Positions 6,059 to 56,875 of a stretch of 62,405 nt of DNA are shown here, one piece after another. Source of the DNA: Euryarchaeota archaeon UBA58 (GTDB lineage: Archaea > Thermoplasmatota > Poseidoniia > Poseidoniales > Thalassarchaeaceae); NCBI GenBank assembly GCA_002498525.1, contig DAHR01000013.1, forward strand, positions 131,809-194,213, written 5' to 3'. Each line of letters starts with the position of its first letter. The first letter of the stretch is position 1. The notes beneath the pieces are model-generated. The model saw nothing but the letters and a program-made list of their open reading frames with translations, had not been told where the DNA came from and searched no databases. The translations under genes and the position numbers were made by a program.

Positions 6059-9000
6059 TCACTGCTCGAACGGCTCCCAAGCTCCGGTTAATTCGTTGTG
6101 TCGAAGCAGGGAGCCATCGGGATTCTGCACCCAGACGTTTCCATCCGCGCCGCGCCAGACCTTCTGTCCGTGCTCGTTAATCTGAGCATCAGCCGGCGCT
6201 TCGATGAGAGGCGCTGGTGGTGGAGCGGTCTCGAGCAGAGCGCCGAGGTCGAACTCGCCCACGTCGGACTTCTCGGCCGGCTCTTCAACCGGTTCTTCGA
6301 TTGGTTCGTCGGTCTCCTCTTCCAATTCCTCTGTGACCTCAGTGTCCTCTGTGGTTTCAGATTCAGGCTCGACTTCCCCAGCATCGATCTCCTCGGTCTC
6401 CGGTTCTGGCTCAGCCTCGGCTTGTGAAGACTCCAGATCATACATCGAGGGCGCCGAATCGAATTCGTCGTCTTCCACCTCGGCCTCTTCTGGCTCGATC
6501 GCCGCCTCGATCTCCATCTCCTCAACGGAATCGAAATCGTGGTCCCGGTCGGCCAATTCGACCTCTGCGGTAGCGTCGGCGGTCACCGGAATGGAAACCC
6601 CGCCGATCTCCATCATCTCGGCATCTTCGTCCTCAGGTCCGTCGGCCCGCGCTCGACCCATCTTGATGCTGAATCCGACCATTCCAAGCACGGCCAGGGC
6701 GATGACGAGATGGAACATTGCCTGAGAATAAGTCTGGTAATATCGAATCGTCGGGAATTTGTCGCTGTTGTCGCCGACGCCGTCACCGTCCGTGTCGAGC
6801 CATTCGCTCGAGTCCTTGGGGAATGCGTCGATGCTGTCGTTGTAGCCGTCTCCATCGCCGTCTGCGATCAGTGGATTGAGTCCGAGTTTGAGTTCTTCAG
6901 CGTCTGGGATACCATCACCATCGTCGTCTGTATCCGCGTTATCTCCGATTCCATCACCGTCGGTGTCGAGCCATTCTGTTGGGTCGAGAGGGAATTCATC
7001 GTCTTCGTCGAGATAGCCGTCGTTGTCGTCGTCGTCATCCTCATCGGCATCTCGGCAACCGTCTGCGTCGTTGTCAATCGCCGGCGTGCTGGTCCAGCCC
7101 ATCACGCCGAAATCACACATATCCATGCCATCGTCGATGCCGTCCCCGTCATCGTCACGGTCGAGGAAGTCAGGTATCCTGTCGCGGTCCGTGTCGGTGT
7201 GGCAGTCGCTGAGGCTGCTCGTTCCTTCCAGCATGGTCATCTGTTCGTTGGGGCAGGGTATCGCTTCTGTCGCGCCCGTCTGCTCGATGTAATGATCGAT
7301 GGGCGCGGGAGTCTGCGAAATCGCTGCTGAAGTGTTGGTGAAGTATCCGGGGTCTGCCGCTTTGCAGGCGGTCTGTCCGCGCTCGTTCTGGTATTCTCCA
7401 GGCTCGCACGGCGTCTGTGCTGGTGCGGCTTCGGATTCGACTGAGTAACCGGGATCGGCCTCTTCGCAGGCCGTGGCTGAGACCGACTCTGTGTTCGGAT
7501 TGTAACTGCCCGGTGCGCATAGAGTCTGCACCAATGCGCCCATCGAATCGACGTAATGACCGGTGTCAGCTGTCAGGCACCAAGCCCAGCCGCTGTTAGG
7601 CTGGTAGGTTCCCAAGGCGCATTGTGTCTGCAGGCCCGAGCCCGCGTTGGCGACGTAATTTCCGGGCTGAGCCTGAATGCAATCGTTCGCCGAAGTCGAT
7701 CCCCGCGCCGGATTGAAGGTGCCGGCGAGACAGGGCTTCTGGGCCGAGGCGAAGTGGGTATCGACATAGTGTCCAGGAGCCGCTTCGAAGCACTCTGTCC
7801 CCGCTCTCGACCCTTGATAGGAGCCCATCGTGCAGCCTATCTGGCCGGTCGCGCCCTCAGCCGGGACGTGGTAACCGAAGTCGGCGTCGATGCAACTGGT
7901 GCTGGCTGGCGCCGGCTGATATGTTCCAGCGGGACACGGCGTCTGGTAGCTCGAACCAGCATCTTCGACGAAGTTTCCAGCCTCGGCGGTGACGCAGTCT
8001 GAAGGGCTGGTCGAGCCGCTGTTCGGATTGTAAGTGCCGGCGCTGCACGGCGTCTGTGCCGTCGCAGCGCCATTCTCGACATAATATCCGGGCTCAGCGA
8101 CATTGCAACTGATCTGCCCTGCAAGATCCTGCCAGTTGCCAGCCTCGCAAGGATGCTGCTGCATCGAGGCTGCCGAATTGACATAATATCCAGGTGAGGC
8201 TGAATCGCAGGTAATCTGCCCTTGATTCGCAGCATAACTGCCGAGCGCGCAGGGAGTCTGCGCGATCGAACCCGTCAGCGGAACATAATAGCCCATATCC
8301 GCAAGCATGCAATCGTCAGCATTGTCCGCCCCGGCATAGGGGTTGTACGAACCCGCAGAACAAGCGATCTGCGCCGTCGCGGCCTGAGTATCGACGTAAT
8401 TCCCGGGGTCCGCGATTAAGCAGCTGTCCGCCCCGATCGCCGGTTGATAGGTTCCCGGTTCGCATGGGAATTGCCTGTCGGAGGCGGTGGAGTTGACGTA
8501 GTAACCAGGGGAGGCTGATTCGCATTTGTCTTGGCCTGTGGCAGATTGGTATGTTCCTACTGCACACTCATACTGCTGAGTCGATGCCGTCGTGGGAACA
8601 TAATGTCCGGCGGCCGCGTTCAAGCATCCCGATTGGCCGGAATAGGGCTGGTAAGTGCCGACTGAACATGCGGTCTGGTTCGTCGAGCCGGTCGAACCGA
8701 CGTAATAGCCGGGCTGGGCATTGAGACACGAACTCTGGCCGATGTAGGGTTGGTAGGTGCCGAGTTCGCAAGCGGTCTGATTGGCTGAAGCCGGGTTCGC
8801 GACATAATATCCAGCGTTGGCCGAGAAGCAGGAAGTTTGAGCGTATGCCGGTTGATAGGATCCGGCGGAGCATTGGGCTTGGAAGGTCGCGCCGCTGACG
8901 TTGACGAAGTAGCCGGGAGCGGCTGGAGTCTGCATCGTCGCTGCAGTCGAGCCGACGTAATAGCCGATGGCCGCGACCATGCAGGTCGTGGCTCCGGTGT

Positions 9001-11224
9001 TGGGTTGATAGTAGCCGAGCGTGCAGGCGATCTGCGCGGTCGCTCCAGTGCTGTAGACGTAATATCCCGCTTGAGCTGGAATGCACGAGGCCTGGCCCGT
9101 CTGATTCTGGTAAGTTCCTATGGCGCACTCCACCTCATTGATTCTGTATTCCGCGTCGACTGCGAACGAGGTCGAACCTATTGGGTTCATCGCGCCCTCG
9201 GTCGATCGCAGGTCGATGACCAGAGTGTAATTCGCGCGTGCTGTTGAACCCGATGAATACAGTACGCGCAGGAAGTAGGTCGCTGTCGTATTGTTGGCTG
9301 CAGCCGTCGAGACCTCGTCATAACTCGTATTGCTGATGCTCGAGGTGATGATGCTGAATGAATCATTGAGCAGGTCGAGATCGAAGTCGGTGACTGATGG
9401 AGAAGTGAGGTTCGCAGTGAAGTAGGAATTCCTGTCCAGAGCGATCTCGTAGACATCGCTCGTATCGGCTGTGCCGTCAGCTGCTGCCGTGTAGTTCGCG
9501 CTCATCGCCGAGAGCGGCAGCGCTGTGCTGCTGCTGTCGCCGGCATCGCCACTGAGGCTGGTGACATAATGGCCGGCGGAAGCGGCGGTGCACGAGGTTT
9601 GACCTATACTCGCTTGGTAAGTTCCGGATGCGCATGGAGTCTGGCTGGTCGCCATGTCGGAGTCGACGGAATTCCCAGCCGATGCGTCGAGACATTCACC
9701 CTGTCCGGTGAAGGGCTGGAAAGTACCGGCGCTGCAGGCGAACTGATTGAGAGAGCCGGCGACCGCGTAATTCCCAGCATCGGCTGCGACGCAGAGCAAG
9801 CGGCCATACTGGCCGATTGGGCAATCTGTCCAACGTGCGGAATTGTCGGGATAATCATCGTCGGCGTCGACTACGCCGTCACCGTCGGAATCGCCCGTCT
9901 GATGGGTGTCGAAGATGTTGCGTGTACCGTCGCCGTCCATGTCCTGGTCGGAATAGGCGACGTGCGCACCAGCATCGAAATCCATCTCGTACGGATTCAA
10001 CTTCGGCTCGGTCGTATTGTCGAATTCGCCCGACTGCGCGCCCCAGCAGCGCAGCGAATCATCGGACAGCAGCGCACAGGTCGAATCACTGCCTGTCGTT
10101 GCTGAAAGGACGGTCAGGCCACTCGTCAGATTGACCGAGAGGGGCGAATCACCCTGACCGGGGAAGATGTTCTCGCCGCTGCAAATCGCATTGATTGTCG
10201 AGCTGCAATTCCCATCACCGAGTTGTCCATTGGTGTTGACTCCCCAGCATTGCATCGAGCCATCGCTGACCACAGCGCAGGTGTGTGAACCGATGCCATC
10301 GAGCATCGTCGCTGTGACACCAGCCCCAAGATCGACGATGTGGACATTGCCCGAGACCGCACCATTGTCGGTCGAGACGGTGTATTTGTCACCCCAGCAT
10401 CCGACCGAGCCATTGTCTAGAATCACACAGGTGCTGCGACCCGGCGTCACCACAGTGACAGCCCGCAAGCCGGTCGAATGATTGGCCACGACCGGCAGCA
10501 GAGAATCGCTCGTCGTGCCGTCGCCCAACTGACCGCGAATGTTGTAGCCCCAGCACTTGACATCACCAGCATGGGTGATCGCGCAGGTGTGGCCGGCACC
10601 GGCCGCCACAGCCACCGCATCGGTGTCCGTACCCAGATCGATTTGAACCGGTGATACCCGATTCGACGTCGAATTATCGCCGATCTGACCATGATGATTG
10701 CGACCCCAGCACCAGAGGCTGGCATCGACGAGAATCGCACAGGAATGGTCGCTGCCGGAATCTACCATCACCGGAACAATGCCGCTGAATGAGACGTAAC
10801 CAGCACTCAGCGATGTCGCGCCAATTCCGAGTTGTCCGTAATTGTTCTGACCGGAGCAATACATCGAATTATTCGACAGAATCACACACGGCTCAGAAGT
10901 CGTCACAACCGAATCATCGGTATAGACAGGACTGCCGTTGACCCACTCGACAGTGGTTCCATTGGCCAGCACCACGATTGGGCCATTCTGGCCGATGTCG
11001 AGGGCCGAATTCGAAAACACCGAGCCGGCCTCGGTTCCGCGCACATTCGGCGTAGCACCGCCGGAGTGCGTGAAAGCATCACTCGCTTCATCATCAAGCA
11101 AACCGGGCCTTTCCGCCGAACCAGCATATTCCACGGAAGAGGCGAGGAATCCAAGCATCGTCACGCCGAAGAAGAGGGCACAGATTCCAAGTGCGATGGT
11201 TGACTTGCGTTGCGCTGAGAGCAT
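6059..11224 (-). CDS. Giant (1721 aa) type-I anchored surface protein: RCC1-like repeats, ephrin-receptor-like Cys repeats, PPC-like module, TSP3-type Ca-binding repeats, TM helix, acidic tail
   Basis: N-terminal signal/anchor ALGICALFFGVTMLGFLA. RCC1 signatures include HSCAIL..LWCWGRNHHGQIGD and HTCAIT..VKCWGYNIRGQLGDGT (nt ~10010-10897). About 20 C-x2-G-[TS]-Y-Q...C...G-[YH]-Y-V units follow. DxDxDGxxDxxD repeats lie at nt ~6745-7205, the TM helix MFHLVIALAVLGMVGFSI follows, and the tail is 201 aa and rich in Glu/Asp. Confidence 0.85.
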   Translation of the reverse strand: MLSAQRKSTIALGICALFFGVTMLGFLASSVEYAGSAERPGLLDDEASDAFTHSGGATPNVRGTEAGSVFSNSALDIGQNGPIVVLANGTTVEWVNGSPVYTDDSVVTTSEPCVILSNNSMYCSGQNNYGQLGIGATSLSAGYVSFSGIVPVMVDSGSDHSCAILVDASLWCWGRNHHGQIGDNSTSNRVSPVQIDLGTDTDAVAVAAGAGHTCAITHAGDVKCWGYNIRGQLGDGTTSDSLLPVVANHSTGLRAVTVVTPGRSTCVILDNGSVGCWGDKYTVSTDNGAVSGNVHIVDLGAGVTATMLDGIGSHTCAVVSDGSMQCWGVNTNGQLGDGNCSSTINAICSGENIFPGQGDSPLSVNLTSGLTVLSATTGSDSTCALLSDDSLRCWGAQSGEFDNTTEPKLNPYEMDFDAGAHVAYSDQDMDGDGTRNIFDTHQTGDSDGDGVVDADDDYPDNSARWTDCPIGQYGRLLCVAADAGNYAVAGSLNQFACSAGTFQPFTGQGECLDASAGNSVDSDMATSQTPCASGTYQASIGQTSCTAASAGHYVTSLSGDAGDSSSTALPLSAMSANYTAAADGTADTSDVYEIALDRNSYFTANLTSPSVTDFDLDLLNDSFSIITSSISNTSYDEVSTAAANNTTATYFLRVLYSSGSTARANYTLVIDLRSTEGAMNPIGSTSFAVDAEYRINEVECAIGTYQNQTGQASCIPAQAGYYVYSTGATAQIACTLGYYQPNTGATTCMVAAIGYYVGSTAATMQTPAAPGYFVNVSGATFQAQCSAGSYQPAYAQTSCFSANAGYYVANPASANQTACELGTYQPYIGQSSCLNAQPGYYVGSTGSTNQTACSVGTYQPYSGQSGCLNAAAGHYVPTTASTQQYECAVGTYQSATGQDKCESASPGYYVNSTASDRQFPCEPGTYQPAIGADSCLIADPGNYVDTQAATAQIACSAGSYNPYAGADNADDCMLADMGYYVPLTGSIAQTPCALGSYAANQGQITCDSASPGYYVNSAASMQQHPCEAGNWQDLAGQISCNVAEPGYYVENGAATAQTPCSAGTYNPNSGSTSPSDCVTAEAGNFVEDAGSSYQTPCPAGTYQPAPASTSCIDADFGYHVPAEGATGQIGCTMGSYQGSRAGTECFEAAPGHYVDTHFASAQKPCLAGTFNPARGSTSANDCIQAQPGNYVANAGSGLQTQCALGTYQPNSGWAWCLTADTGHYVDSMGALVQTLCAPGSYNPNTESVSATACEEADPGYSVESEAAPAQTPCEPGEYQNERGQTACKAADPGYFTNTSAAISQTPAPIDHYIEQTGATEAIPCPNEQMTMLEGTSSLSDCHTDTDRDRIPDFLDRDDDGDGIDDGMDMCDFGVMGWTSTPAIDNDADGCRDADEDDDDDNDGYLDEDDEFPLDPTEWLDTDGDGIGDNADTDDDGDGIPDAEELKLGLNPLIADGDGDGYNDSIDAFPKDSSEWLDTDGDGVGDNSDKFPTIRYYQTYSQAMFHLVIALAVLGMVGFSIKMGRARADGPEDEDAEMMEIGGVSIPVTADATAEVELADRDHDFDSVEEMEIEAAIEPEEAEVEDDEFDSAPSMYDLESSQAEAEPEPETEEIDAGEVEPESETTEDTEVTEELEEETDEPIEEPVEEPAEKSDVGEFDLGALLETAPPPAPLIEAPADAQINEHGQKVWRGADGNVWVQNPDGSLLRHNELTGAWEPFEQ
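7265..9127 (-). repeat. Coding tandem array of ~29-31 aa Cys/Gly/Tyr units (ephrin-receptor-like / GCC2_GCC3-type)
   Basis: Roughly 18 consecutive units such as CSAGSYQPAYAQTSCFSANAGYYVANPASANQTA. Three more units lie upstream at nt ~9545-9817. The units are divergent at the DNA level, so this is not a CRISPR or satellite. Confidence 0.8.
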
Positions 11225-11280: not shown

Positions 11281-13068
11281 TCATGCGTTTAGCACCTCTA
11301 GAGCCAGTCCAAAGGACTGAACGTCAGATTCGACAAAAGCTTCCTCAACACTCTCGAATGGTTTTGCTGGGTTCTTGCGCGCCGCCTTCGCTCTGGTTGA
11401 GATCAACCTCCATGCGGCCTTCGCTCCGATGCCTGGGATGGCCGCGAGTTGGGCCTGTGTGGCTGTGTTGATCGATAGGTCCGACTCGACCCCCGATATG
11501 CTGCGCATGCCGTGGCCGGTGATGATGATGTCCGAGCCGGTTTCGAGAGGGATCTGGTAGGGTACTCCTACGAGGATTGGGTAGGCTCCGATTTGGCGGC
11601 CGAAAGTGATGCCGGCTTTGCCGTGAATGGCCGGGTTTCGGTATTCCGGGTTGAGGACTTGTTCGGGTCTGCGGATGCGGTCTCCGTGGGCTTCCCACCA
11701 GACCTCGCGCAGGGTCGTTCCGAGTGGGAACATCTCGGTCAGGAGTGGGTGGTCGATCTCTTCTCTGACTTGGCGTTTGAATTCGCGGAATGTGTCTTGC
11801 GGGATGGGCTGGAATCCTTGGCCTTCGACTTGGCGGATGTTGATTCTTCGAAGCCACAGACCTTCGGCGCGCAGGCTTTGGAGGAGTTTGCGGTTGAGTT
11901 CGTAGGATTTCTCAGTCTCACCGTTGAGGCCGGCTATGAAATTGAGGCCGGGAAGGAGTTTCGGGAGGCCTCGCTCGCCTCGCTCGCGGCCGAATTCGTT
12001 GATGTGACGGATCGCTGTTCTCAGTTGCTCGGCGTCGCAGTTGAGCCAGTTCTCCTCGTGCACTGTCGGGTCTGCTGATTCGAGGCCGAAGGAAAGGACT
12101 GCTCCATCGGAGAGTGTTTCGATCATCGTGCGGGTGATCTCGGTTGCCGGTTCGAGATTCTCTGCGACTATCGAGGGATTGCCATTGTCGACATGGAGGA
12201 TTTCGAGGCGTTCGTCTTCACGCAGGCCGTGTAGGACTTTTGCTATCGGTTCGGGGTTCGGGACGGGATATTCGAGTTCCAAAACGCCCTCCGCCTTGTA
12301 GGTGTAGATGTCGGTCGCGCCGCCGATTCTGACATGCCGAACTCCCTCGTCGAGGGCGCTTGTGATCTCAGCGATGACTGCTGCTTCTTCGCGCCATATC
12401 GGTACTCCTTTCTTGGGCTCGATGCAGAACTTGCAGCCGCGCTTGAAGCGCACGCAGCCTTGGTAGAGTTCGACCTCGTAGGTGAGGGGTCCAGCTCGTC
12501 CATCTTCGGTCCGTAGATCAGGGTGTTCGGTCACACATTTTCCTTTTGCACCGGCTGCAGCCCAAGTGTTCCATTGGTCTGCAGTGCGGCGTTTATGAGC
12601 CCACTTTCCGGTGCTGAGGAAATTGTCGAAGGTCGCGTCAGTATCCTGCACGGCGCAGAACAGATTCGAGCGTAAGGGCATCCAACCATCATAGCGCCAA
12701 TGTTTGATCGCCCAGCCGCCGGCAAGGACTGGTTGTTCGCTGGGTAGAACGGCGAGGAACTCGTCGAGTTCGCGGCGTGAAATCGGAGTTCCTCGAACAT
12801 ATTTTCCAGGCACGACAGCACCAGCTAGAACCACCGCTCCATCGAGGTCAGAGAGTTCTCGCTGCAGGGCGGCTCGCTCGCCTGAATCGGCAATACGTGC
12901 TTTGTGTTCAAGCCGCCATCGATCGATGGTCATGTAGGTGTATGGAATCCCTCGCGCTTCCAACACTCCGCAGATGTAGCGGATGTGGAATCCTAGGTAA
13001 TTCGGCACGCCGAAGGCGGCCGGTTCATCCTCGTAACCATCGAGAACGAGCCAGCCTTCCATCTCCAT
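11281..13068 (-). CDS. Radical-SAM-type enzyme with an N-terminal Rossmann/B12-like domain and a C-terminal helix-hairpin-helix
   Basis: Cys cluster GCVRFKRGCKFCIEP (C-x6-C-x2-C, nt 12424-12456) lies in a TIM-barrel-sized core. The C-terminal QLAAIPGIGAKAAWRLI is a helix-hairpin-helix (HhH) motif (nt ~11401-11460). Confidence 0.7.
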   Translation of the reverse strand: MEMEGWLVLDGYEDEPAAFGVPNYLGFHIRYICGVLEARGIPYTYMTIDRWRLEHKARIADSGERAALQRELSDLDGAVVLAGAVVPGKYVRGTPISRRELDEFLAVLPSEQPVLAGGWAIKHWRYDGWMPLRSNLFCAVQDTDATFDNFLSTGKWAHKRRTADQWNTWAAAGAKGKCVTEHPDLRTEDGRAGPLTYEVELYQGCVRFKRGCKFCIEPKKGVPIWREEAAVIAEITSALDEGVRHVRIGGATDIYTYKAEGVLELEYPVPNPEPIAKVLHGLREDERLEILHVDNGNPSIVAENLEPATEITRTMIETLSDGAVLSFGLESADPTVHEENWLNCDAEQLRTAIRHINEFGRERGERGLPKLLPGLNFIAGLNGETEKSYELNRKLLQSLRAEGLWLRRINIRQVEGQGFQPIPQDTFREFKRQVREEIDHPLLTEMFPLGTTLREVWWEAHGDRIRRPEQVLNPEYRNPAIHGKAGITFGRQIGAYPILVGVPYQIPLETGSDIIITGHGMRSISGVESDLSINTATQAQLAAIPGIGAKAAWRLISTRAKAARKNPAKPFESVEEAFVESDVQSFGLALEVLNA

Positions 13069-13132: not shown

Positions 13133-14473
13133 TCAGTTCCGACGGCGTCGGCCACCATCGCGACCACCGCGTCCGCCGTGACGATTGCCACCGCGATTGC
13201 CACCACGACCACCACCGCGGCTACCGCCACGTGAATCGTTGGACTCCTGAACGCTGAGTTTGCGACCGTTGACATCGGTGCCGTTGAGTTCCTTGAGTGC
13301 CGCCTCGCCTGCCTTCCGGCTAGCGAATTTGATGAAAGCGAAGCCGCGCGACTTTCCGGTCTCACGGTCGGTGGCGATGCTGACTTCCTTCAATTCACCA
13401 TGAGCGGCGAACAACTCTCGCAGCTCATCTTCTGAGGTTTCGTAGGATAGACTCGCAACGAAGAGTTTGATCCCCATGGTTTCACCAGCCTCGGCTCGAG
13501 CCTTTTTGAGAATCTCTCGCTCGGCAGCAAGCTCCTCACGGCTCGCTTTTCCGTCCTTGACCTTGTTCATGCAGTCTCGGCAGCGGATTGGTTTTCCGGG
13601 TGTCGGCTCGAATGGGACGGTCGTGTCGATTAGGCACAAAGTACACTTGCAAGCGTGTGAAACTCGTGGTTTTCGGTCACCGCCGCGTCCACCGCCGCCG
13701 CCGCGTCCCCCGCCGGTGATTGCTGCACGCATCTTGGCCGCGGCAGCTGGAATATCGTGTGCCATGCCGCGGCGATGGTCGGCCACTGGGGACAGATATG
13801 GTCTGGCTCCCTCGTGGCCGAGTCCCGACTCAGCAGCTGCTGACCAACGCTCGCCGGTCCGATTCAGGCTCTGGACATCCCCACCGAGGGTGTGTCCGTG
13901 ACCGAAGCCATTGGAGAGAACGCGGTAGCCGATGTAGTCGCAGCGAGGGCATTTGACGTTGAAATCGGGTTTTGCCGACGAGGTCTCGAGGTCGACTCCG
14001 CAGGCAGGGCAGATGGCTGACAATACGCCGAGTTCGGGCGCCTCGCGCGTGGTCGCCTTGATGTTCGGCTCGACTTGGGTGATGCGGGCTCTGATGATGT
14101 CGCGCGTGCGCATCGCATCGCCAGGTGAAGGGAGGAATCTGTCGACGATTTGAGTCACGAATAAGTCTGCGAAGAGGTTCAGTGCTGGCAGGTCTCGATG
14201 GCCGCCATCCTTCTCGATGTGAAGCAAACGGACCATCGCAACTTTCGGCATCAATTTTGTGACTTCTGCGATTACGTCATCACCGACCATTGGTAGATTC
14301 GTCTCAACTTGAGTGGTCTCGATGGAGATTGTTCCGCTCGAATCGACGACGGTGCCAGAGACTGTTGCGACGACGCCGGTGCCGGTCTCGTGAACGCCGG
14401 TTCCAAGGCTCGCACCCTCAGGGATTGAGATGGAGTTTCCAGGTGTGACAAAGTCACCAGCAGCAGCACTCAT
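13133..14473 (-). CDS. csl4: Exosome cap subunit Csl4 fused to a CxxC...CxxC zinc knuckle, an RRM domain and an RGG tail
   Basis: Residues 1-190 are Csl4-like: GDFVTPGN N-domain, S1-like core, and PELGVLSAICPACG...VKCPRCDY zinc ribbon. Then come a GGRGGGGGRGG linker, CKCTLC..VPFEPTPGKPIRCRDC, and an RRM with RNP2 LFVASL and RNP1 RGFAFIKF. The C-terminus is SRGGSRGGGRGGNRGGNRHGGRGGRDGGRRRR. Start placed at ATG 14473 (MSAAAGDF). Confidence 0.8.
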   Translation of the reverse strand: MSAAAGDFVTPGNSISIPEGASLGTGVHETGTGVVATVSGTVVDSSGTISIETTQVETNLPMVGDDVIAEVTKLMPKVAMVRLLHIEKDGGHRDLPALNLFADLFVTQIVDRFLPSPGDAMRTRDIIRARITQVEPNIKATTREAPELGVLSAICPACGVDLETSSAKPDFNVKCPRCDYIGYRVLSNGFGHGHTLGGDVQSLNRTGERWSAAAESGLGHEGARPYLSPVADHRRGMAHDIPAAAAKMRAAITGGGRGGGGGRGGDRKPRVSHACKCTLCLIDTTVPFEPTPGKPIRCRDCMNKVKDGKASREELAAEREILKKARAEAGETMGIKLFVASLSYETSEDELRELFAAHGELKEVSIATDRETGKSRGFAFIKFASRKAGEAALKELNGTDVNGRKLSVQESNDSRGGSRGGGRGGNRGGNRHGGRGGRDGGRRRRN

Positions 14474-14569
14474 CGAGCCGCCGACCGGACAACCCCCTAT
14501 GAACGCGACGGCCGTGCGTAGCACGGTCTTGGGCTAGAGTACACAGCGGGCTTGGCAAGAAGTTGCAGT

Positions 14570-15187
14570 TCACTCAGCAGGAGGTGTGAGTCGCCAGAAT
14601 GCGACTCGGGTTCGGCCTTGGCGGCGCGAATGATGAGCATAGGCGGCTGGCAGGGCGAAATCCGCTTCCCAATATCTTTCAACGGCCCAGCCCGATTCTT
14701 CGAAAAATGACTGGATATGAGTCGCAGCGGCGCTGTGCATCAAGTGGCATATCGCACCACTGCGAAGCATCGCCTCGAGAAATGGCCGATCAGCTCTGGC
14801 GCTTTGTGCGCCCCAAGGTGGGTTAGAAATCACAAGGCTTGCACCCGCCACATCGAGGTTCTCATCGACGCTACGACACATCACCTCAACCACTTCGCCC
14901 ACGTCAACTTGCTCGACCGCCTCGAAGGCAGCAGCGCAAGCAGCCTCATCACATTCGATCAGCACTACCGAAGTTGCACCTAGCAGCGCGGCGCCGATTC
15001 CCAGAACTCCATTGCCTGCGCCGAGGTCGGCGACCACTGAATCAGAATCGAGGTCGCCAAAAGCGGCGATCTGTCCCAACCAAGCAGCAGCCATATCGCC
15101 GCTAGTCACATATTGTTCCAACTCGACAATCCCGCACGGATGCTCAGGAAGCGAGGAGAGAGTCATCGCGAGTCTGCGTTGGCGCAC
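14570..15187 (-). CDS. METTL5/COG2263-like SAM-dependent N6-adenine (rRNA) methyltransferase
   Basis: SAM motif VADLGAGNGVLGIG and catalytic SNPPWG. The C-terminal pattern ADRPFLEAML...HLMHS...DFALPAAYAHHSRR resembles the METTL5 family. Confidence 0.75.
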   Translation of the reverse strand: MRQRRLAMTLSSLPEHPCGIVELEQYVTSGDMAAAWLGQIAAFGDLDSDSVVADLGAGNGVLGIGAALLGATSVVLIECDEAACAAAFEAVEQVDVGEVVEVMCRSVDENLDVAGASLVISNPPWGAQSARADRPFLEAMLRSGAICHLMHSAAATHIQSFFEESGWAVERYWEADFALPAAYAHHSRRQGRTRVAFWRLTPPAE

Positions 15188-15360: not shown

Positions 15361-16650
15361 ATGCAGTACGAAATCGTATACTTGATCGTAGGAATTCTCG
15401 CGGGGGCGGCCATCGGCTGGCTCTACGCGAAGCAGAAGACAGATGCCGCCTTGAGTGAGGCGAAGACAGCAATGACGCGCGCACAAGCAACAGCCGAAGC
15501 ACTCGCTGAGGCGCGCGAGGGCGAGGAATCGATGATCCGCGAAATGCGCGAGAGCGAGCAGAAGCGAGTCAACGAATTGCTGAAGGAAGAAATGAAGAAT
15601 ATTGCAACACAAGTCGGCGAGCGGAACACCGCCGAATTTCTCAAGCTCGCCGACCAGAGATTCGCAGTGGGTCAGAAAGAAGCTGAGAAGAGCCTCGAAA
15701 CTCGCAAACTCGAGGTCGAGGCTCTCATCACACCTCTACGCGATGAGATGGTGAAGATGTCAACTGCCAACCAAGCGATGGAGAAGGATCGCGAAGGTGC
15801 TTACCAAGCCATCAAGCGTCAACTGAAGGATCTGGGCGACCAAACCGAGAACCTCGGTGTGAGAACCACCGCTCTCTCGACAGCCCTCACCACCTCTGGT
15901 CAGGCTCGTGGTAATTGGGGCGAGGTGAAACTCCGCCGCCTCTTCGAGATGGCTGGGATGTCCGAACATGTCGACTTCTTTGAACAAGAAACAATCGAAG
16001 GCGGCGGTCGACCGGATTACATCATCCGCATGCCGCAGCAAGGTGTGATTCCAATCGATTCCAAAGCCTCAGGAGCGTCCTTCCTCAAGGCCGTCGAACT
16101 CGATGCTGGAGAAAAGCAAGACGCCCTTCTCGCCGAGCACGCAGTAGCTGTGAAACAACGAATCAAGGAGTTGAGTTCAAAGAGTTACCAAGAGGATATC
16201 GAGGGTGATTTTGACCATGTCGTGATGTTCATTCCGAGCGAAGCCATGGCAGCAGCAGCCTTCAGTATCGACCCAGATTTGATGGATTATGCGATGACGA
16301 AATTCGTTCTCATTGCCACTCCCGTGACGATGCTCGGCTTACTGCGAACTATCGCCCTCTACTGGCAACAACATGCATTGGCAGAGGGTGCGAGTGAGAT
16401 TTACGAAGTCTCCCGGGAGATGTACAAGCGAGTCAATACGCTCATCGAACACCTCTTGAAAGTCGGTGGGCACCTCGATAAGGCTGGCAAGTCCTACAAT
16501 GACGCCATGCGCTCGTACGAGAGCCGAGTTCTACCCCAAGGACGTCGTCTCGACGATCTGCAAGTCTCCGACACTCTGGCGAGTGCACTGCCAGAGCCAA
16601 AAGAGATTGAAGCCTTTCCAAACAAGACTTCCACAGATGGGGAGGAATGA
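15361..16650 (+). CDS. rmuC: RmuC-family DNA recombination/nuclease protein
   Basis: N-terminal TM helix, a long coiled coil, then the RmuC core ARGNWGEVKLRRLFE...RPDYIIRMP...IPIDSK. Confidence 0.85.
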   Translation: MQYEIVYLIVGILAGAAIGWLYAKQKTDAALSEAKTAMTRAQATAEALAEAREGEESMIREMRESEQKRVNELLKEEMKNIATQVGERNTAEFLKLADQRFAVGQKEAEKSLETRKLEVEALITPLRDEMVKMSTANQAMEKDREGAYQAIKRQLKDLGDQTENLGVRTTALSTALTTSGQARGNWGEVKLRRLFEMAGMSEHVDFFEQETIEGGGRPDYIIRMPQQGVIPIDSKASGASFLKAVELDAGEKQDALLAEHAVAVKQRIKELSSKSYQEDIEGDFDHVVMFIPSEAMAAAAFSIDPDLMDYAMTKFVLIATPVTMLGLLRTIALYWQQHALAEGASEIYEVSREMYKRVNTLIEHLLKVGGHLDKAGKSYNDAMRSYESRVLPQGRRLDDLQVSDTLASALPEPKEIEAFPNKTSTDGEE

Positions 16651-21031: not shown

Positions 21032-22084
21032 TCAGTCCTCCGCTACGTGTCCTGGCAACGCCATCCACGAGTCGTCTATGAATCCGATGCGCAGACTCGC
21101 ACCGGAGCCCTCATCATCATAGGGCAGTGCGACGGTCACCACGCGGTAATCGACGGGGTCCATGACCTCAGCCCCTGAAGAGTCGCGATTGAGAATATCA
21201 ACGACTTTCTGGTCATCCAAACGACACACAACGCTAGCCTTCTCCATATCGCGCCAACTGACTCCAGTACGCTGATTATGTTCGAGTCGGCTCAGTGTTG
21301 GACCATCCTTCTGCCAAGCGGAGACAAGCCAATTCTGTCGCTTAAGTCGAACCACATCTCCAAGGGCGTAAGCCGGTTTCCGGTAACTGAGAGTGAGGCG
21401 TGTGACCTCCATCCCATCCCGCATCCCGACGAGTGTTGCCGATTCCTTGATGGTGCCCCCGAAACGCTTGACGAGGCGTCGCGCCCAGGTTTTTGTGAGT
21501 GATTTCGAGCCGAGCTGGAGATCCCATCCTCCAGTAACGGGCCCTTCCTTGGTGATGAAGAACATCGGGTCTGATTCGGCTTCGTCGAGGAGCTCATCGA
21601 GGGTACCTCTGAGTGATTTGAGTTCCTCGTCTGATAGGCGGCGACCAGCGCTTCTGAGTTGCATCGTCGCCTCGAAATAAGCGCCTGCTCTTCGAGTGCA
21701 GGCAGGGCAGACGGCATTGCTCGTCTGAATCAGGACGTCGTGCTCGTCTGCGAAATCGTAGCCCTCGAGTTGGCCCTCGACGGTTACGTGCAGACGGGCT
21801 GTTCGCTCGTCGATCGGCTGGTAGGCTACATCGACGGCTACTTCGGTTGCCCCGCTCACCACATCGAGATTCTCGCGCAATCGATGTTCGCCGAGATCGG
21901 CGTCGTCGATGTTGACCCAGCGTTTCTCGACCTCGTGCTTCGAACACTTGGCACAGCGCTCCTGTTGAATCCTGTCAGGGACTTTCGAAAATGTGGTTCT
22001 GACGCGCAGGCAAGCCTCGCACAGACGCTTGCTGGTCAGAGGTGGTTGCGCGCCGCAAGCAACACAGAATGCTCCGCTGTCCAT
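21032..22084 (-). CDS. NMD3-family protein (archaeal homologue of the 60S export adaptor)
   Basis: N-terminal double zinc-ribbon pattern CVACG...CEAC...CAKC and a further CPAC. Length and layout are typical of archaeal NMD3. Confidence 0.8.
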   Translation of the reverse strand: MDSGAFCVACGAQPPLTSKRLCEACLRVRTTFSKVPDRIQQERCAKCSKHEVEKRWVNIDDADLGEHRLRENLDVVSGATEVAVDVAYQPIDERTARLHVTVEGQLEGYDFADEHDVLIQTSNAVCPACTRRAGAYFEATMQLRSAGRRLSDEELKSLRGTLDELLDEAESDPMFFITKEGPVTGGWDLQLGSKSLTKTWARRLVKRFGGTIKESATLVGMRDGMEVTRLTLSYRKPAYALGDVVRLKRQNWLVSAWQKDGPTLSRLEHNQRTGVSWRDMEKASVVCRLDDQKVVDILNRDSSGAEVMDPVDYRVVTVALPYDDEGSGASLRIGFIDDSWMALPGHVAED

Positions 22085-40876: not shown

Positions 40877-40920
40877 CGATGTTATAGCGGCTTGGAGTGG
40901 GGCTTGAACCTGTCTTCTTC

Positions 40921-46943: not shown

Positions 46944-48942
<1,999 letters not shown>

Positions 48943-48953
48943 GGTGATTGAGA

Positions 48954-56873: not shown

Positions 56874-56875
56874 TC

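What the first reader, a model, noticed from the sequence alone, without database searches (positions are those of the whole stretch)
13133..14473. Exosome cap protein Csl4 fused in one ORF to a second zinc knuckle, a canonical RRM and an RGG tail
One uninterrupted 446-codon frame joins four modules.
- Residues 1-190 form a complete Csl4: GDFVTPGN N-domain, S1-like core, and CPACG...CPRCDY zinc ribbon.
- A GGRGGGGGRGG linker is followed by CKCTLC-x17-...IRCRDC, with a VPFEPTPGKP core like the CxxC-x17-CxxC modules seen on some RNA-binding proteins.
- An RRM has a textbook RNP2 (LFVASL) and RNP1 (RGFAFIKF).
- The tail is a 35-aa RGG/RG-rich segment.
To my knowledge RRM domains and RGG boxes are common in eukaryotes and some bacteria but rare in Archaea. 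I know of no described Csl4 that carries them. If real, this exosome cap would have an extra single-stranded-RNA-binding arm of eukaryote-like design.
Basis: partly seen in the sequence, partly recalled or inferred. Interest (0 to 1): 0.75.

Follow-up and report, generated by a model that had tools for sequence, protein, structure and literature searches.

The report
Exosome cap protein with built-in RNA-binding arm
In Marine Group II archaea, among the most abundant archaea of the surface ocean, the Csl4 cap subunit of the RNA-degrading exosome is permanently fused to a zinc finger, an RRM domain and an arginine-glycine tail, so these cells appear to have built into the exosome the kind of RNA-recruiting arm that eukaryotes supply as separate cofactors.

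Summary
The gene lies on the minus strand (13133-14473, 446 codons).

**Domains, all passing curated thresholds:**
- a complete Csl4 (residues 1-190)
- a CxxC-x17-CxxC treble-clef zinc finger (270-305)
- a canonical RRM (334-412)
- a tri-RGG tail (413-446)

residues 183-240 are a fifth, strongly conserved module with no known relatives.

**The fusion is not an artefact.** All 80 related loci that were kept (150 encode a relative) carry the same uninterrupted ORF. All that are named to lineage are Marine Group II/Poseidoniales, and they include single-cell and long-read assemblies. Synteny is conserved: METTL5-type methyltransferase, then Csl4 fusion, then radical-SAM protein.

**Variants.** At the same locus the MGIIa type carries Csl4 + mid-module + 2×RRM. 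A third variant carries 2× zinc finger + RGG and no RRM. The scaffold is therefore fixed and the RNA-binding tail is swapped between lineages.

**Context.** Published MGII pangenome tables list Rrp4, Rrp41, Rrp42 and DnaG as core genes but no "Csl4". The two forms probably appear there mislabelled as "CIRBP" and "PABPC".

**Most likely function:** the sole Csl4 cap subunit of the MGII exosome, with a flexible in-cis RNA-recruiting arm. I rate it a new variant of a known kind. I found no description in the searchable literature, and there is no biochemical test.

The parts
13133..14473 (-). Whole CDS: Csl4-fusion protein, 446 aa plus stop
   Evidence: ORF list and translation. Full-length homologues at 57-98% identity in more than 120 clusters.
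14309..14473 (-). Csl4 N-terminal domain (residues ~1-55; GDFVTPG motif)
   Evidence: NF034126 covers residues 7-190. ECR1_N hits in orthologues. AF2 pLDDT 86-91. Boundary approximate.
14039..14308 (-). Csl4 S1 domain (residues ~56-145)
   Evidence: NF034126. Alignment to 2ba1_A. Foldseek hits to archaeal, yeast and human Csl4. Boundary approximate.
13928..14038 (-). Csl4 C-terminal zinc ribbon (residues ~146-182; C155-x2-C158 ... C175-x2-C178)
   Evidence: All four Cys are invariant in A1. The segment lies within the NF034126 and 2ba1_A alignments.
13754..13927 (-). Conserved mid-module (residues 183-240; LSNGFGHGH..LNRxGxRW..AE..LGHEGARPYLSPVADHRRG). No known family.
   Evidence: More than 25 invariant positions in A1. 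Shared by all tail variants. No Pfam hit and no significant PDB relative. AF2: residues 181-220 have pLDDT 70-92, residues 221-240 are below 50.
13667..13753 (-). Helix followed by a Gly/Arg-rich flexible linker (residues 241-269; GGGRGGGGGRGG)
   Evidence: Length varies among homologues. pI 12. pLDDT mostly below 50 (block means 41-50; 251-267 below 50).
13559..13666 (-). CxxC-x17-CxxC treble-clef zinc finger (residues 270-305; C277, C280, C298, C301)
   Evidence: PF23477 33.4 bits against 27. TIGR04272 35.3 bits against 36. Regex hit at 13571-13645. Family members bind Zn in M. mazei (PMC12704099).
13475..13558 (-). Conserved helix following the finger (residues 306-333; KASREELAAEREILKKARAEAGE)
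   Evidence: AF2 helix 312-332, pLDDT 74-87. Conserved in A1. The same finger + helix unit is duplicated in P0129.
13238..13474 (-). RRM domain (residues 334-412; RNP2 LFVASL, RNP1 RGFAFIKF)
   Evidence: PF00076 73.2 bits. RNP1 G377, F378 and F380 invariant. AF2 pLDDT 92-95. Foldseek TM ~0.9 to RBM39, ELAVL1 and hnRNP A18 RRMs.
13136..13237 (-). RGG/RG tail (residues 413-446; 5 RGG, pI 12)
   Evidence: Composition and tri-RGG regex. Present with variable length in all MGIIb homologues. pLDDT below 40.
14474..14511 (-). Conserved 38-nt non-coding element directly upstream of the ATG (CCGnnnCGTT[C/G]ATAGGGGGT..CCGGTCG..). Probably a promoter for a leaderless mRNA.
   Evidence: Alignment of 21 MGIIb loci shows contiguous invariant bases and no codon periodicity. 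No RNA structure: alifold -0.2 kcal/mol. Absent upstream of the MGIIa genes. The function is an inference.
14570..15187 (-). Upstream neighbour on the same strand: METTL5/PH1948-type small methyltransferase. Conserved partner in synteny.
   Evidence: Pfam MTS. PDB 1wy7 PH1948 E=2e-22, human METTL5 E=3e-15, Ta1320. Found directly upstream in every locus that holds the sequence.
11281..13068 (-). Downstream neighbour on the same strand: 595-aa radical-SAM protein with a C-terminal HhH motif. Conserved in synteny in most MGII loci.
   Evidence: Pfam. tblastn across loci. Gene tables of MGIIa loci.

Best explanation
**What it is.** The gene encodes the Csl4 cap subunit of the Marine Group II (here the MGIIb/Thalassarchaeaceae type) RNA exosome, carrying a lineage-specific C-terminal RNA-recruiting arm.

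**Shown:**
- The N-terminal 190 residues are a complete Csl4 by sequence and by predicted fold.
- The arm contains a bona fide RRM with intact RNP1/RNP2 aromatic residues, a four-Cys treble-clef finger and a tri-RGG tail.
- The whole arrangement is under purifying selection across the order.
- It occupies the same locus in every lineage examined.

**Inferred:**
1. The Csl4 part docks on the Rrp41-Rrp42 ring, with its S1 domain at the pore, as in solved archaeal and eukaryotic exosomes.
2. The arm leaves from the peripheral zinc-ribbon domain.
3. The first half of the conserved mid-module (183-220) packs onto the Csl4 body.
4. The second half (221-240) is a conserved but disordered motif that docks a partner. 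Candidates are the ring, DnaG or aRNase J, since the last two are known to bind the Csl4 C-terminal domain in other archaea.
5. Two flexible Gly/Arg linkers let the finger-helix-RRM-RGG unit capture single-stranded or structured RNA. This raises the local RNA concentration at the S1 pore and so biases which RNAs are degraded or A-tailed.

Functionally this is an in-cis counterpart of trans-acting cap accessories: archaeal DnaG, and the eukaryotic RRM/zinc-knuckle adaptors.
For: **Module identity.** Csl4 equivalog score above cutoff. Match to A. fulgidus Csl4, PDB 2ba1. Best Foldseek hits are archaeal, human and yeast Csl4. RRM_1 and PF23477 score above their cutoffs.

**Conservation.** RNP1 residues and both Cys pairs are invariant or nearly so in 30 homologues at 58-99% identity.

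**Not an artefact.** 150 loci in the species-representative genome collection encode a relative. All 80 loci examined have one continuous ORF; these include single-cell genomes and long-read contigs up to 1.6 Mb.

**Orthology.** The synteny METTL5-like methyltransferase, Csl4 fusion, radical-SAM protein is the same in MGIIb and MGIIa. Both other tail variants also pass the Csl4 equivalog cutoff.

**Exosome context.** Rrp4, Rrp41, Rrp42 and DnaG are listed as core genes of MGII. No entry labelled Csl4 exists in that table. It does hold an MGIIb-only 'CIRBP' cluster (143 genomes) and an MGIIa-only 'PABPC' cluster (77 genomes) (Tully 2019, PMC6336850, Supplementary Data 10).

**Arm geometry.** AF2 with 63 sequences gives confident Csl4, finger, helix and RRM. 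Low confidence falls exactly in the G/R linker, the tail and residues 221-240.

**Docking precedent.** DnaG and aRNase J dock on the Csl4 C-terminal domain in other archaea (PMC3672285; PMC7144898).
Against: - There is no biochemical or expression evidence. Association with Rrp41/Rrp42 and RNA binding by the arm are inferred from homology only.
- The exosome core genes are not in this 62-kb window. Their presence rests on a published table for the clade, not on this genome.
- I could not search a whole MGII genome for a second, canonical Csl4.
- Equating the 'CIRBP' and 'PABPC' clusters with the fusion is my inference. It is supported only by JGI giving the same name to two fusion clusters.
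- The packing of residues 183-220 on Csl4 is read from pLDDT alone. I could not inspect model coordinates.
Confidence: 0.7

Rival explanations
1. The protein acts mainly outside the exosome, as a free multi-domain RNA-binding protein or RNA chaperone. It would resemble bacterial and plant glycine-rich RRM proteins or CIRBP, with the Csl4 S1 and zinc-ribbon domains serving merely as two more RNA-binding modules.
For: The RRM + RGG combination is the architecture of glycine-rich or cold-inducible RNA-binding proteins, and both KEGG and JGI pipelines label it that way. The RRM scores 81.9 bits on the bacterial Rbp model NF058537. S1 domains bind RNA on their own.
Against: The N-terminal part is a full three-domain Csl4, including the N-terminal domain that in canonical Csl4 is thought to contact the ring rather than RNA (recalled, not tested here), and it scores above the equivalog cutoff. 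No other Csl4 is listed for the clade, although Rrp4/41/42 and DnaG are core genes. The locus is orthologous across families even though the tails differ. That points to selection on the Csl4 scaffold.
Confidence: 0.15
2. The arm is mainly a protein-interaction, localisation or regulatory device rather than a substrate-recruiting one. Possibilities: tethering the exosome to ribosomes or to DnaG/aRNase J; autoinhibiting the pore; or driving RNA-dependent condensates through the RGG segments.
For: The most conserved part of the extension is the non-RBD mid-module. Its second half is predicted to be disordered, as short linear interaction motifs are. The Csl4 C-terminal domain is a known protein-docking site. 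RGG regions commonly mediate self-association (general knowledge). The non-MGIIb variants end in a conserved acidic motif, RE..A..EEG.
Against: The RNP1/RNP2 aromatic residues and the finger cysteines are invariant, as expected for nucleic-acid or zinc binding. Every variant keeps at least one recognised RNA-binding module type. This rival is also compatible with the main explanation rather than exclusive of it.
Confidence: 0.12
3. The fusion is an assembly, binning or indel artefact that joins a Csl4 gene to a neighbouring RRM gene.
For: The window is a single contig of unknown origin, and no reads were available.
Against: The same continuous ORF occurs in 80 of 80 loci examined. These come from many independent assemblies, including single-cell amplified genomes and long-read contigs. 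Indels among homologues are in-frame and confined to the G/R linker and tail. Sequence conservation runs straight through the junctions.
Confidence: 0.01

Closest known systems
Canonical archaeal Csl4 (e.g. A. fulgidus AF0206, PDB 2BA1/3M7N; S. solfataricus and P. abyssi Csl4)
   Same: Same three-domain body: N-terminal domain, S1 and a four-Cys zinc ribbon. It aligns end to end with the 179-aa A. fulgidus protein (residues 8-194) and is the best structural match. It passes the NCBIfam equivalog cutoff.
   Different: Canonical Csl4 ends just after the zinc ribbon at about 180-190 aa. This protein continues for 255 more residues: a conserved mid-module, a G/R linker, a second zinc finger, a helix, an RRM and an RGG tail.
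MGIIa (Poseidoniaceae-type) Csl4-2×RRM proteins (e.g. P0384, 'Csl4 [Candidatus Poseidonia sp.]')
   Same: Positional orthologues: the same methyltransferase, Csl4, radical-SAM synteny. Same Csl4 body and mid-module.
   Different: Their tail is two RRMs plus a conserved acidic C-terminal motif (RE..A..EEG), with no zinc finger and little RGG. Overall identity is only 30-40%. The window's RRM is equidistant from their RRM1 and RRM2.
Archaeal DnaG as exosome cap accessory
   Same: It adds RNA-binding capacity (a poly(A) preference) to the Csl4 face of the cap, and it attaches through the Csl4 C-terminal domain (PMC3672285, PMC4227792). That is where the MGII arm begins.
   Different: DnaG is a separate polypeptide with unrelated domains (Toprim and its own N-terminal domain). 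MGII also keeps dnaG as a core gene, so the arm adds to DnaG rather than replacing it.
Eukaryotic exosome adaptors that combine an RRM and a zinc knuckle (NEXT: RBM7-ZCCHC8-MTR4; TRAMP: Air1/2-Trf4/5-Mtr4)
   Same: Same design logic: an RRM and/or a small zinc module captures RNA and hands it to the exosome cap (general knowledge; reviews PMC5322736 and PMC5769741 were listed but not read).
   Different: Those are trans-acting multi-protein complexes built around the MTR4 helicase, and their fingers are CCHC knuckles. Here the modules are fused in cis to Csl4, the finger is a CxxC-x17-CxxC treble clef, and no helicase is involved. This is an analogy, not homology.
Glycine-rich single-RRM proteins (cyanobacterial Rbp, plant GRP, vertebrate CIRBP/hnRNP A18)
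   Same: One RRM followed by an RGG/Gly-rich tail. hnRNP A18 (5tbx) superposes on the RRM with TM 0.89. The bacterial Rbp model scores 81.9 bits. KEGG and JGI pipelines give the fusion this name.
   Different: Those proteins are 90-170 aa and stand alone. Here the RRM-RGG unit is the last fifth of a 446-aa Csl4 protein. The Rbp equivalog cutoff of 100 bits is not reached.
CxxC-x17-CxxC (TIGR04272/PF23477) small proteins of Methanosarcina
   Same: Same four-Cys spacing and the VPF.P...P core. Family members were shown to bind zinc (PMC12704099).
   Different: Those are free small proteins of unknown function. Here the module is embedded between Csl4 and an RRM and is followed by a conserved helix.

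Membership tests
Csl4 (exosome cap subunit; NCBIfam NF034126) | Curated equivalog HMM score at or above the cutoff over the full model | tested here: met
   95.8 bits against a cutoff of 90; residues 7-190 match model positions 1-178 of 180. Orthologues P0384 and P0129 score 98.9 and 96.7 bits.
Csl4 (exosome cap subunit; NCBIfam NF034126) | Three-domain fold: N-terminal domain + S1 + C-terminal zinc ribbon | tested here: met
   End-to-end alignment with A. fulgidus Csl4 2ba1_A. The AF2 model is confident over residues 1-180. Foldseek top hits are 2ba1_A (E=1e-14), human EXOSC1 6d6q_I (TM 0.74) and yeast Csl4.
Csl4 (exosome cap subunit; NCBIfam NF034126) | Four zinc-ribbon cysteines (archaeal type) | tested here: met
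   C155, C158, C175 and C178 are invariant in A1 and at least 90% conserved in A3.
Csl4 (exosome cap subunit; NCBIfam NF034126) | Genome also encodes the Rrp41-Rrp42 ring and Rrp4 | tested here: inconclusive
   These genes are not in the 62-kb window. At clade level, RRP4, RRP41 and RRP42 occur in 137-138 of 158 and 85-86 of 92 MGII genomes (PMC6336850, Supplementary Data 10).
Csl4 (exosome cap subunit; NCBIfam NF034126) | Physical assembly on the ring as the cap | not testable with these tools
   Requires reconstitution, co-purification or a multimer structure prediction.
RRM (Pfam PF00076) | HMM score above the gathering threshold; RNP2 and RNP1 motifs with aromatic residues | tested here: met
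   73.2 bits against 20.7. RNP2 is LFVASL and RNP1 is RGFAFIKF. G377, F378 and F380 are invariant.
RRM (Pfam PF00076) | Beta-alpha-beta-beta-alpha-beta fold | tested here: met
   AF2 elements E336-340, H348-356, E361-368, E375-383, H386-396 and E407-410, with pLDDT 92-95. TM 0.88-0.94 to RBM39, ELAVL1 and hnRNP A18 RRMs.
RRM (Pfam PF00076) | Binds single-stranded RNA | not testable with these tools
   Needs EMSA, RBNS or CLIP.
CxxC-x17-CxxC treble-clef finger (PF23477 / TIGR04272) | Two CxxC pairs exactly 17 residues apart; HMM score above cutoff | tested here: met
   C277-x2-C280-x17-C298-x2-C301. PF23477 scores 33.4 bits against 27. TIGR04272 scores 35.3 bits against 36, which is 0.7 bits short. 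The orthologue P0121 scores 46.9 bits.
CxxC-x17-CxxC treble-clef finger (PF23477 / TIGR04272) | Zinc binding | not testable with these tools
   Shown only for M. mazei family members (PMC12704099).
RGG/RG-motif proteins | Tri-RGG: three or more RGG separated by 0-4 residues | tested here: met
   RGGSRGGGRGGNRGG at 13187-13231. The tail has 5 RGG (the protein has 7 in all) and pI 12.
Eukaryotic NEXT/TRAMP-type exosome adaptor | Separate complex built on the MTR4 helicase, with a CCHC zinc knuckle | tested here: not met
   The finger is a CxxC-x17-CxxC treble clef, not CCHC. The modules are fused to Csl4. No helicase domain is present in the protein. This is a functional analogy only.
CIRBP / glycine-rich RRM protein (the KEGG/JGI label) | Small stand-alone protein consisting of one RRM plus a Gly/Arg tail | tested here: not met
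   The RRM + RGG unit occupies only residues 334-446 of a 446-aa Csl4 protein. The bacterial Rbp equivalog NF058537 scores 81.9 bits, below its cutoff of 100.

The most novel reading that the evidence does not exclude
Poseidoniales evolved a modular, 'plug-in' exosome cap.

- **Fixed part:** a Csl4 + mid-module scaffold.
- **Exchangeable part:** cassettes of RNA-binding domains swapped between families. The three seen here are zinc finger + RRM + RGG in MGIIb, 2×RRM + an acidic motif in MGIIa, and 2× zinc finger + RGG in a third lineage.

On this reading, exosome substrate choice in these archaea is hard-wired in cis and differs between ecotypes. It would be an independent archaeal invention of the RRM/zinc-module exosome-targeting principle that eukaryotes realise with NEXT/TRAMP-type cofactors.

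The conserved, family-less mid-module would be a new docking domain that links the arm to the ring or to DnaG/aRNase J.
Probability: 0.4. Interest if true: 0.75.

Novelty: new variant of a known kind. Interest (0 to 1): 0.6.

Why it matters
How archaeal exosomes choose their substrates is poorly understood. The known determinants are the Rrp4/Csl4 mix in the cap and the accessory protein DnaG.

Here one of the most abundant archaeal groups of the surface ocean has, across the whole order, welded RNA-binding domains onto Csl4. RRM domains are, to my knowledge, rare in Archaea (I could not verify this from the literature held). The RGG tail and the extra zinc finger are otherwise known to me from eukaryotic and bacterial RNA-binding proteins and from small archaeal proteins. 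The attached domains differ between the two ecologically distinct families, MGIIa and MGIIb.

This matters in three ways:
1. It gives a natural experiment on cap-mediated substrate selection. The arm can be deleted, swapped or mutated in a reconstituted complex.
2. It defines a new conserved Csl4 extension (residues 183-240) that may mark a partner-docking site.
3. It corrects an annotation problem. The orthologue of a core exosome subunit is labelled 'CxxC-x17-CxxC domain-containing protein', 'cold-inducible RNA-binding protein', 'nucleolin' or 'hypothetical' in databases. It probably also appears as 'CIRBP' and 'PABPC' family-specific core genes in a published MGII pangenome.

Tried and rejected
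1. **Plus-strand reading.** The stated coordinates give only stop-ridden sequence on the plus strand. The gene is on the minus strand.
2. **Longer ORF from GTG 14524 (463 aa).** Rejected. The extra 'FIGGCPVGG' stretch reflects a conserved non-coding DNA element without codon periodicity.
3. **RNA-structure reading of that upstream element.** Rejected. RNAalifold gives -0.2 kcal/mol and essentially no covariation.
4. **Profile search with the 55-aa mid-module alone (A4) against the 5.8-billion protein set.** Uninformative. It collected 116 candidates and returned 3 short fragments, missing even the known family. I therefore cannot say whether the module occurs outside this architecture.
5. **Genome scan with the mixed alignment A2.** Failed because no stretch was conserved enough.
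6. **Genome scan with P0129.** Found nothing in the species-representative genomes. The protein was later traced to a 3-Mb metagenomic contig.
7. **PDB sequence searches for the mid-module and for the finger + helix unit.** No significant hits.
8. **Exosome core genes in the window.** None found among about 50 ORFs scanned.
9. **Literature on Csl4 + RRM in archaea, or Poseidoniales + RRM.** Nothing relevant. I also could not retrieve a citable statement on the rarity of RRMs in Archaea, so that point rests on my own background knowledge.
10. **Origin of the RRM.** The best outside hits are large multi-RRM proteins of unknown origin and generic eukaryotic RRMs. No donor lineage can be named.
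11. **First structure prediction with 30 close sequences.** Poor (pLDDT 60). Only the 63-sequence alignment spanning both tail types gave a usable model.
Full report
**1. The observation**

The coordinates hold one uninterrupted ORF, but on the minus strand. On the plus strand the interval is full of stops. On the minus strand an ORF runs 14524..13133, which is 463 codons from a GTG and 446 codons from the ATG at 14473.

The 51 nt between the GTG and the ATG belong to a non-coding element. It is conserved base for base, without third-position wobble, in 21 related loci. I therefore take ATG 14473 as the start. Gene callers that used upstream starts produced a spurious 'PFIGGCPVGG' N-terminus in some database entries.

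**2. The modules**

- **Csl4.** The NCBIfam equivalog for Csl4 (NF034126) matches residues 7-190 over model positions 1-178 of 180, at 95.8 bits against a cutoff of 90. The 179-aa A. fulgidus Csl4 of the solved exosome (2ba1_A) aligns to residues 8-194. So the first ~190 residues are a complete, normal-sized Csl4.
- **Zinc finger.** Pfam places a PF23477 treble-clef finger at residues 270-305 (33.4 bits against 27). The finger has the exact C-x2-C-x17-C-x2-C spacing.
- **RRM.** Pfam places RRM_1 at residues 337-406 (73.2 bits, E=1.6e-20). RNP2 is LFVASL and RNP1 is RGFAFIKF.
- **Tail.** The last 34 residues have 5 RGG, 9 RG/GR and pI 12, and contain a tri-RGG run.
- **Uniqueness in the window.** No other ORF in the window has any of these signatures. 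The gene's G+C content (59.4%) matches the window's (57.4%).

**3.

I aligned 30 full-length homologues at 58-99% identity. The stretch between the Csl4 zinc ribbon and the Gly/Arg linker is residues 183-240:

YRVLSNGFGHGHTLGGDVQSLNRTGERWSAAAESGLGHEGARPYLSPVADHRRGMAHD

It carries more than 25 invariant positions, more densely than most of the protein. It has no Pfam or NCBIfam hit and no PDB relative by sequence.

A first AF2 run on 30 close sequences was poor (pLDDT 60). A second run on a 63-sequence alignment spanning both tail types gave mean pLDDT 78:

| Region | Residues | pLDDT |
|---|---|---|
| Csl4 body | 1-180 | mostly 83-93 (10-residue block means 70-93) |
| Mid-module, first half | 181-220 | 92 / 88 / 82 / 70 (by 10-residue blocks) |
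| Mid-module, second half, and G/R linker | 221-270 | 40-50 (block means) |
| Finger | 271-300 | 79-85 |
| Helix | 312-332 | 74-87 (block means) |
| RRM | 334-412 | 92-95 |
| Tail | 414-446 | below 40 |

Foldseek against the PDB returns A. fulgidus Csl4 first (E=1e-14). Human and yeast Csl4/EXOSC1 follow, then RRMs at TM about 0.9.

My reading is that the first half of the mid-module is an ordered extension of the Csl4 body. The second half is conserved but unstructured, and so looks like a docking motif. This is an inference from confidence values, because I could not inspect coordinates.

**4. It is real, and it is a clade-wide feature**

- A word-indexed search found 729 relatives. The best 120 clusters are all full-length (about 420-440 aa; 57-98% identity) with the same Pfam pair. 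They sit on contigs up to 664 kb. Sources name them variously 'CxxC-x17-CxxC domain-containing protein', 'Csl4', 'cold-inducible RNA-binding protein' or 'hypothetical', from Poseidoniales, Poseidoniia or Thalassarchaeum MAGs.
- In the collection of one genome per species, 150 loci encode a relative. The best 80 are Marine Group II wherever the record title is specific. They include single-cell amplified genomes and long-read contigs of 0.7 and 1.6 Mb.
- I scripted a check of these loci. All 80 have one continuous ORF with exactly one finger and one RNP1; those complete within their contig are 417-456 aa.
- Indels among homologues are in-frame and confined to the G/R linker and the tail.

The artefact hypothesis is therefore excluded without needing reads.

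**5. Orthology and tail swapping**

An exhaustive phmmer search of 1.8 billion representatives revealed a second tier of full-length relatives at 35-46% identity. They share the Csl4 body and the mid-module motif (LS[DN]G[FY]GxG...LNxxGKRW...AE...AR...ADxRxDGR) but carry different tails:

- Most have two RRMs.
- One (P0151) has a single RRM.
- One (P0129) has two CxxC-x17-CxxC fingers plus a long RGG tract and no RRM.

All of these end in a conserved acidic motif, S-R-E-x2-A-x2-E-E-G, which the window protein lacks.

The 2×RRM form is very abundant: more than 1,300 proteins at E below 1e-20. One cluster is named Csl4 of Candidatus Poseidonia, which is MGIIa. Both other forms pass the Csl4 equivalog cutoff, at 98.9 and 96.7 bits.

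Gene order is the same everywhere:

- **The window:** METTL5/PH1948-type methyltransferase, Csl4 fusion, ~595-aa radical-SAM protein.
- **MGIIb loci:** the same order.
- **MGIIa loci:** the same order.
- **The 3-Mb contig carrying P0129:** the same upstream neighbours.

These are positional orthologues with exchanged C-terminal cassettes. The window's RRM is 37-45% identical to both RRM1 and RRM2 of the MGIIa forms, so no one-to-one domain orthology can be assigned. Every variant that could be traced and whose record title names a lineage maps to Poseidoniales; other titles say only 'Methanobacteriota' or 'Euryarchaeota archaeon', and the P0129 contig is untyped. I could not determine whether sister lineages have the extension.

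**6. Exosome context**

The window itself holds no Rrp4, Rrp41, Rrp42 or DnaG gene. For the clade, Supplementary Data 10 of Tully 2019 (PMC6336850) gives the following:

| Sheet | Label | Counts |
|---|---|---|
| MGII Core | RRP4, RRP41, RRP42 | 137-138 of 158 and 85-86 of 92 genomes |
| MGII Core | dnaG | 132 and 84 genomes |
| (any sheet) | Csl4 | not listed at all |
| MGIIa-unique core | 'PABPC; polyadenylate-binding protein' | 77 genomes, 0 outside |

JGI gives the 'cold-inducible' name to two of the fusion clusters. These two entries are therefore very probably the two Csl4 forms, mislabelled after their RRM ends. This is an inference; I could not link cluster ids to sequences. The paper's main text mentions none of this.

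Together these data suggest that the fusion is the only Csl4 of these organisms and that it works alongside a normal ring, Rrp4 and DnaG.

**7. Mechanism**

In solved archaeal and eukaryotic exosomes, Csl4 sits on the RNase-PH ring with its S1 domain at the entry pore. Its C-terminal domain is at the periphery. That domain is where DnaG (PMC3672285) and aRNase J (PMC7144898) attach in other archaea. The MGII arm starts exactly there.

I propose the following, all inferred:

1. The ordered part of the mid-module braces the zinc ribbon.
2. The disordered conserved motif at residues 221-240 contacts a partner.
3. The finger-helix-RRM-RGG unit, on Gly/Arg tethers, captures RNA and feeds 3' ends to the pore. 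This would tune substrate choice for degradation or tailing.

Supporting details:
- Invariance of the RNP1 aromatic residues and the finger cysteines argues that nucleic-acid and zinc binding are under selection.
- CxxC-x17-CxxC proteins of M. mazei do bind zinc (PMC12704099).

The design parallels DnaG (in trans) and the eukaryotic NEXT/TRAMP adaptors, which combine an RRM or a zinc knuckle. It is not homologous to them: the finger type differs, there is no helicase, and the modules are fused in cis.

**8. Rivals**

- **Exosome-independent RNA-chaperone role.** Not excluded (about 0.15). It is disfavoured by the intact ring-binding Csl4 body, the orthologous locus and the absence of any other listed Csl4.
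- **Mainly protein-docking, localisation or condensate role for the arm.** Possible and partly compatible with the main explanation (about 0.12).
- **Assembly artefact.** Effectively refuted.

**9. Novelty and verdict**

The sequences are public but inconsistently named. I found no paper that describes a Csl4 carrying an RRM, an extra finger or an RGG tail, or any RRM discussion for Poseidoniales.

That RRMs are rare in Archaea is my background knowledge; I could not retrieve a citable statement.

I class this as a new variant of a known kind: a Csl4 exosome cap subunit with a lineage-specific, modular RNA-binding arm and an uncharacterised conserved extension.

Interest is 0.6. It should be notable to archaeal RNA biologists and is directly testable by reconstitution. 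It remains an elaboration of a known machine in uncultured organisms, with no functional data yet.

Noticed in passing
window 14474-14511 (minus strand): A 38-nt element directly upstream of the Csl4 ATG (CCGnnnCGTT[C/G]ATAGGGGGT..CCGGTCG..) is conserved almost base for base across 21 MGIIb loci, more strongly than the coding wobble positions. It shows no RNA structure. The TATA-like TTCATAGG at -30 suggests a promoter for a leaderless mRNA. It is absent upstream of the MGIIa orthologues.
   Followed up: partly
window 13754-13927 (minus strand; residues 183-240): A strongly conserved Csl4 C-terminal extension with no Pfam, NCBIfam or PDB relative. Its first half folds confidently in AF2. Its second half (LGHEGARPYLSPVADHRRG) is conserved but predicted to be disordered.
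   Followed up: partly
P0124, P0126, P0127, P0129, P0130, P0135, P0137, P0138, P0151; loci L081-L092: All non-MGIIb Csl4 variants end in a conserved acidic C-terminal motif (S-R-E-x2-A-x2-E-E-G) that the window protein lacks. It may be a short linear interaction motif.
   Followed up: no
L094 5055-5889: On the 3-Mb contig carrying the 2×finger/RGG Csl4 variant, a 118-bp × 7.1 tandem repeat (98% matches) fills the gap between the methyltransferase and the Csl4 gene. It has no Rfam match.
   Followed up: partly
PMC6336850 Supplementary Data 10 (literature, not the window): The MGII pangenome table has no Csl4 entry. It lists 'CIRBP' as an MGIIb-unique core gene and 'PABPC' as an MGIIa-unique core gene, probably the two Csl4 fusion forms mislabelled. 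The table also lists 'HNRNPL' (MGIIb-unique) and 'RBM17' (MGII core), which hints at further RRM-type proteins in MGII.
   Followed up: partly
window 14570-15187 (minus strand): The METTL5/PH1948/Ta1320-type small methyltransferase (the human homologue is an rRNA m6A methyltransferase) sits directly upstream of Csl4 in every MGII locus examined. I recall, but did not verify, that a predicted RNA methylase is linked to Csl4 in other archaea (Koonin et al. 2001).
   Followed up: partly
window 11281-13068 (minus strand): A 595-aa radical-SAM protein with a C-terminal helix-hairpin-helix motif and no NCBIfam match. It lies downstream of Csl4 in most MGII loci but is absent from that position in some sub-clades (L058, L062-L066, L071-L075).
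   Followed up: no
window 6059-11224 (-), 25854-30677 (+), 40897-45042 (+): Three very large ORFs, probably secreted or surface proteins: 1721 aa with RCC1 repeats and ephrin-receptor-like repeats; 1607 aa with a subtilase and CARDB; 1381 aa with PKD domains.
   Followed up: no
window 46978-51647 (+), 54900-59620 (-), 15361-16650 (+): Bacterial-type DNA gyrase B/A, MutL/MutS and RmuC genes lie in this archaeal window, along with an NMD3 homologue at 21032-22084 (-).
   Followed up: no
P0043, P0051; L021 and L054: Two database homologues show short, locally scrambled stretches consistent with frameshift errors in single contigs. One MAG (SRP167671_co2_219) carries two partial copies on different contigs, probably from strain mixing in the bin.
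   Followed up: no
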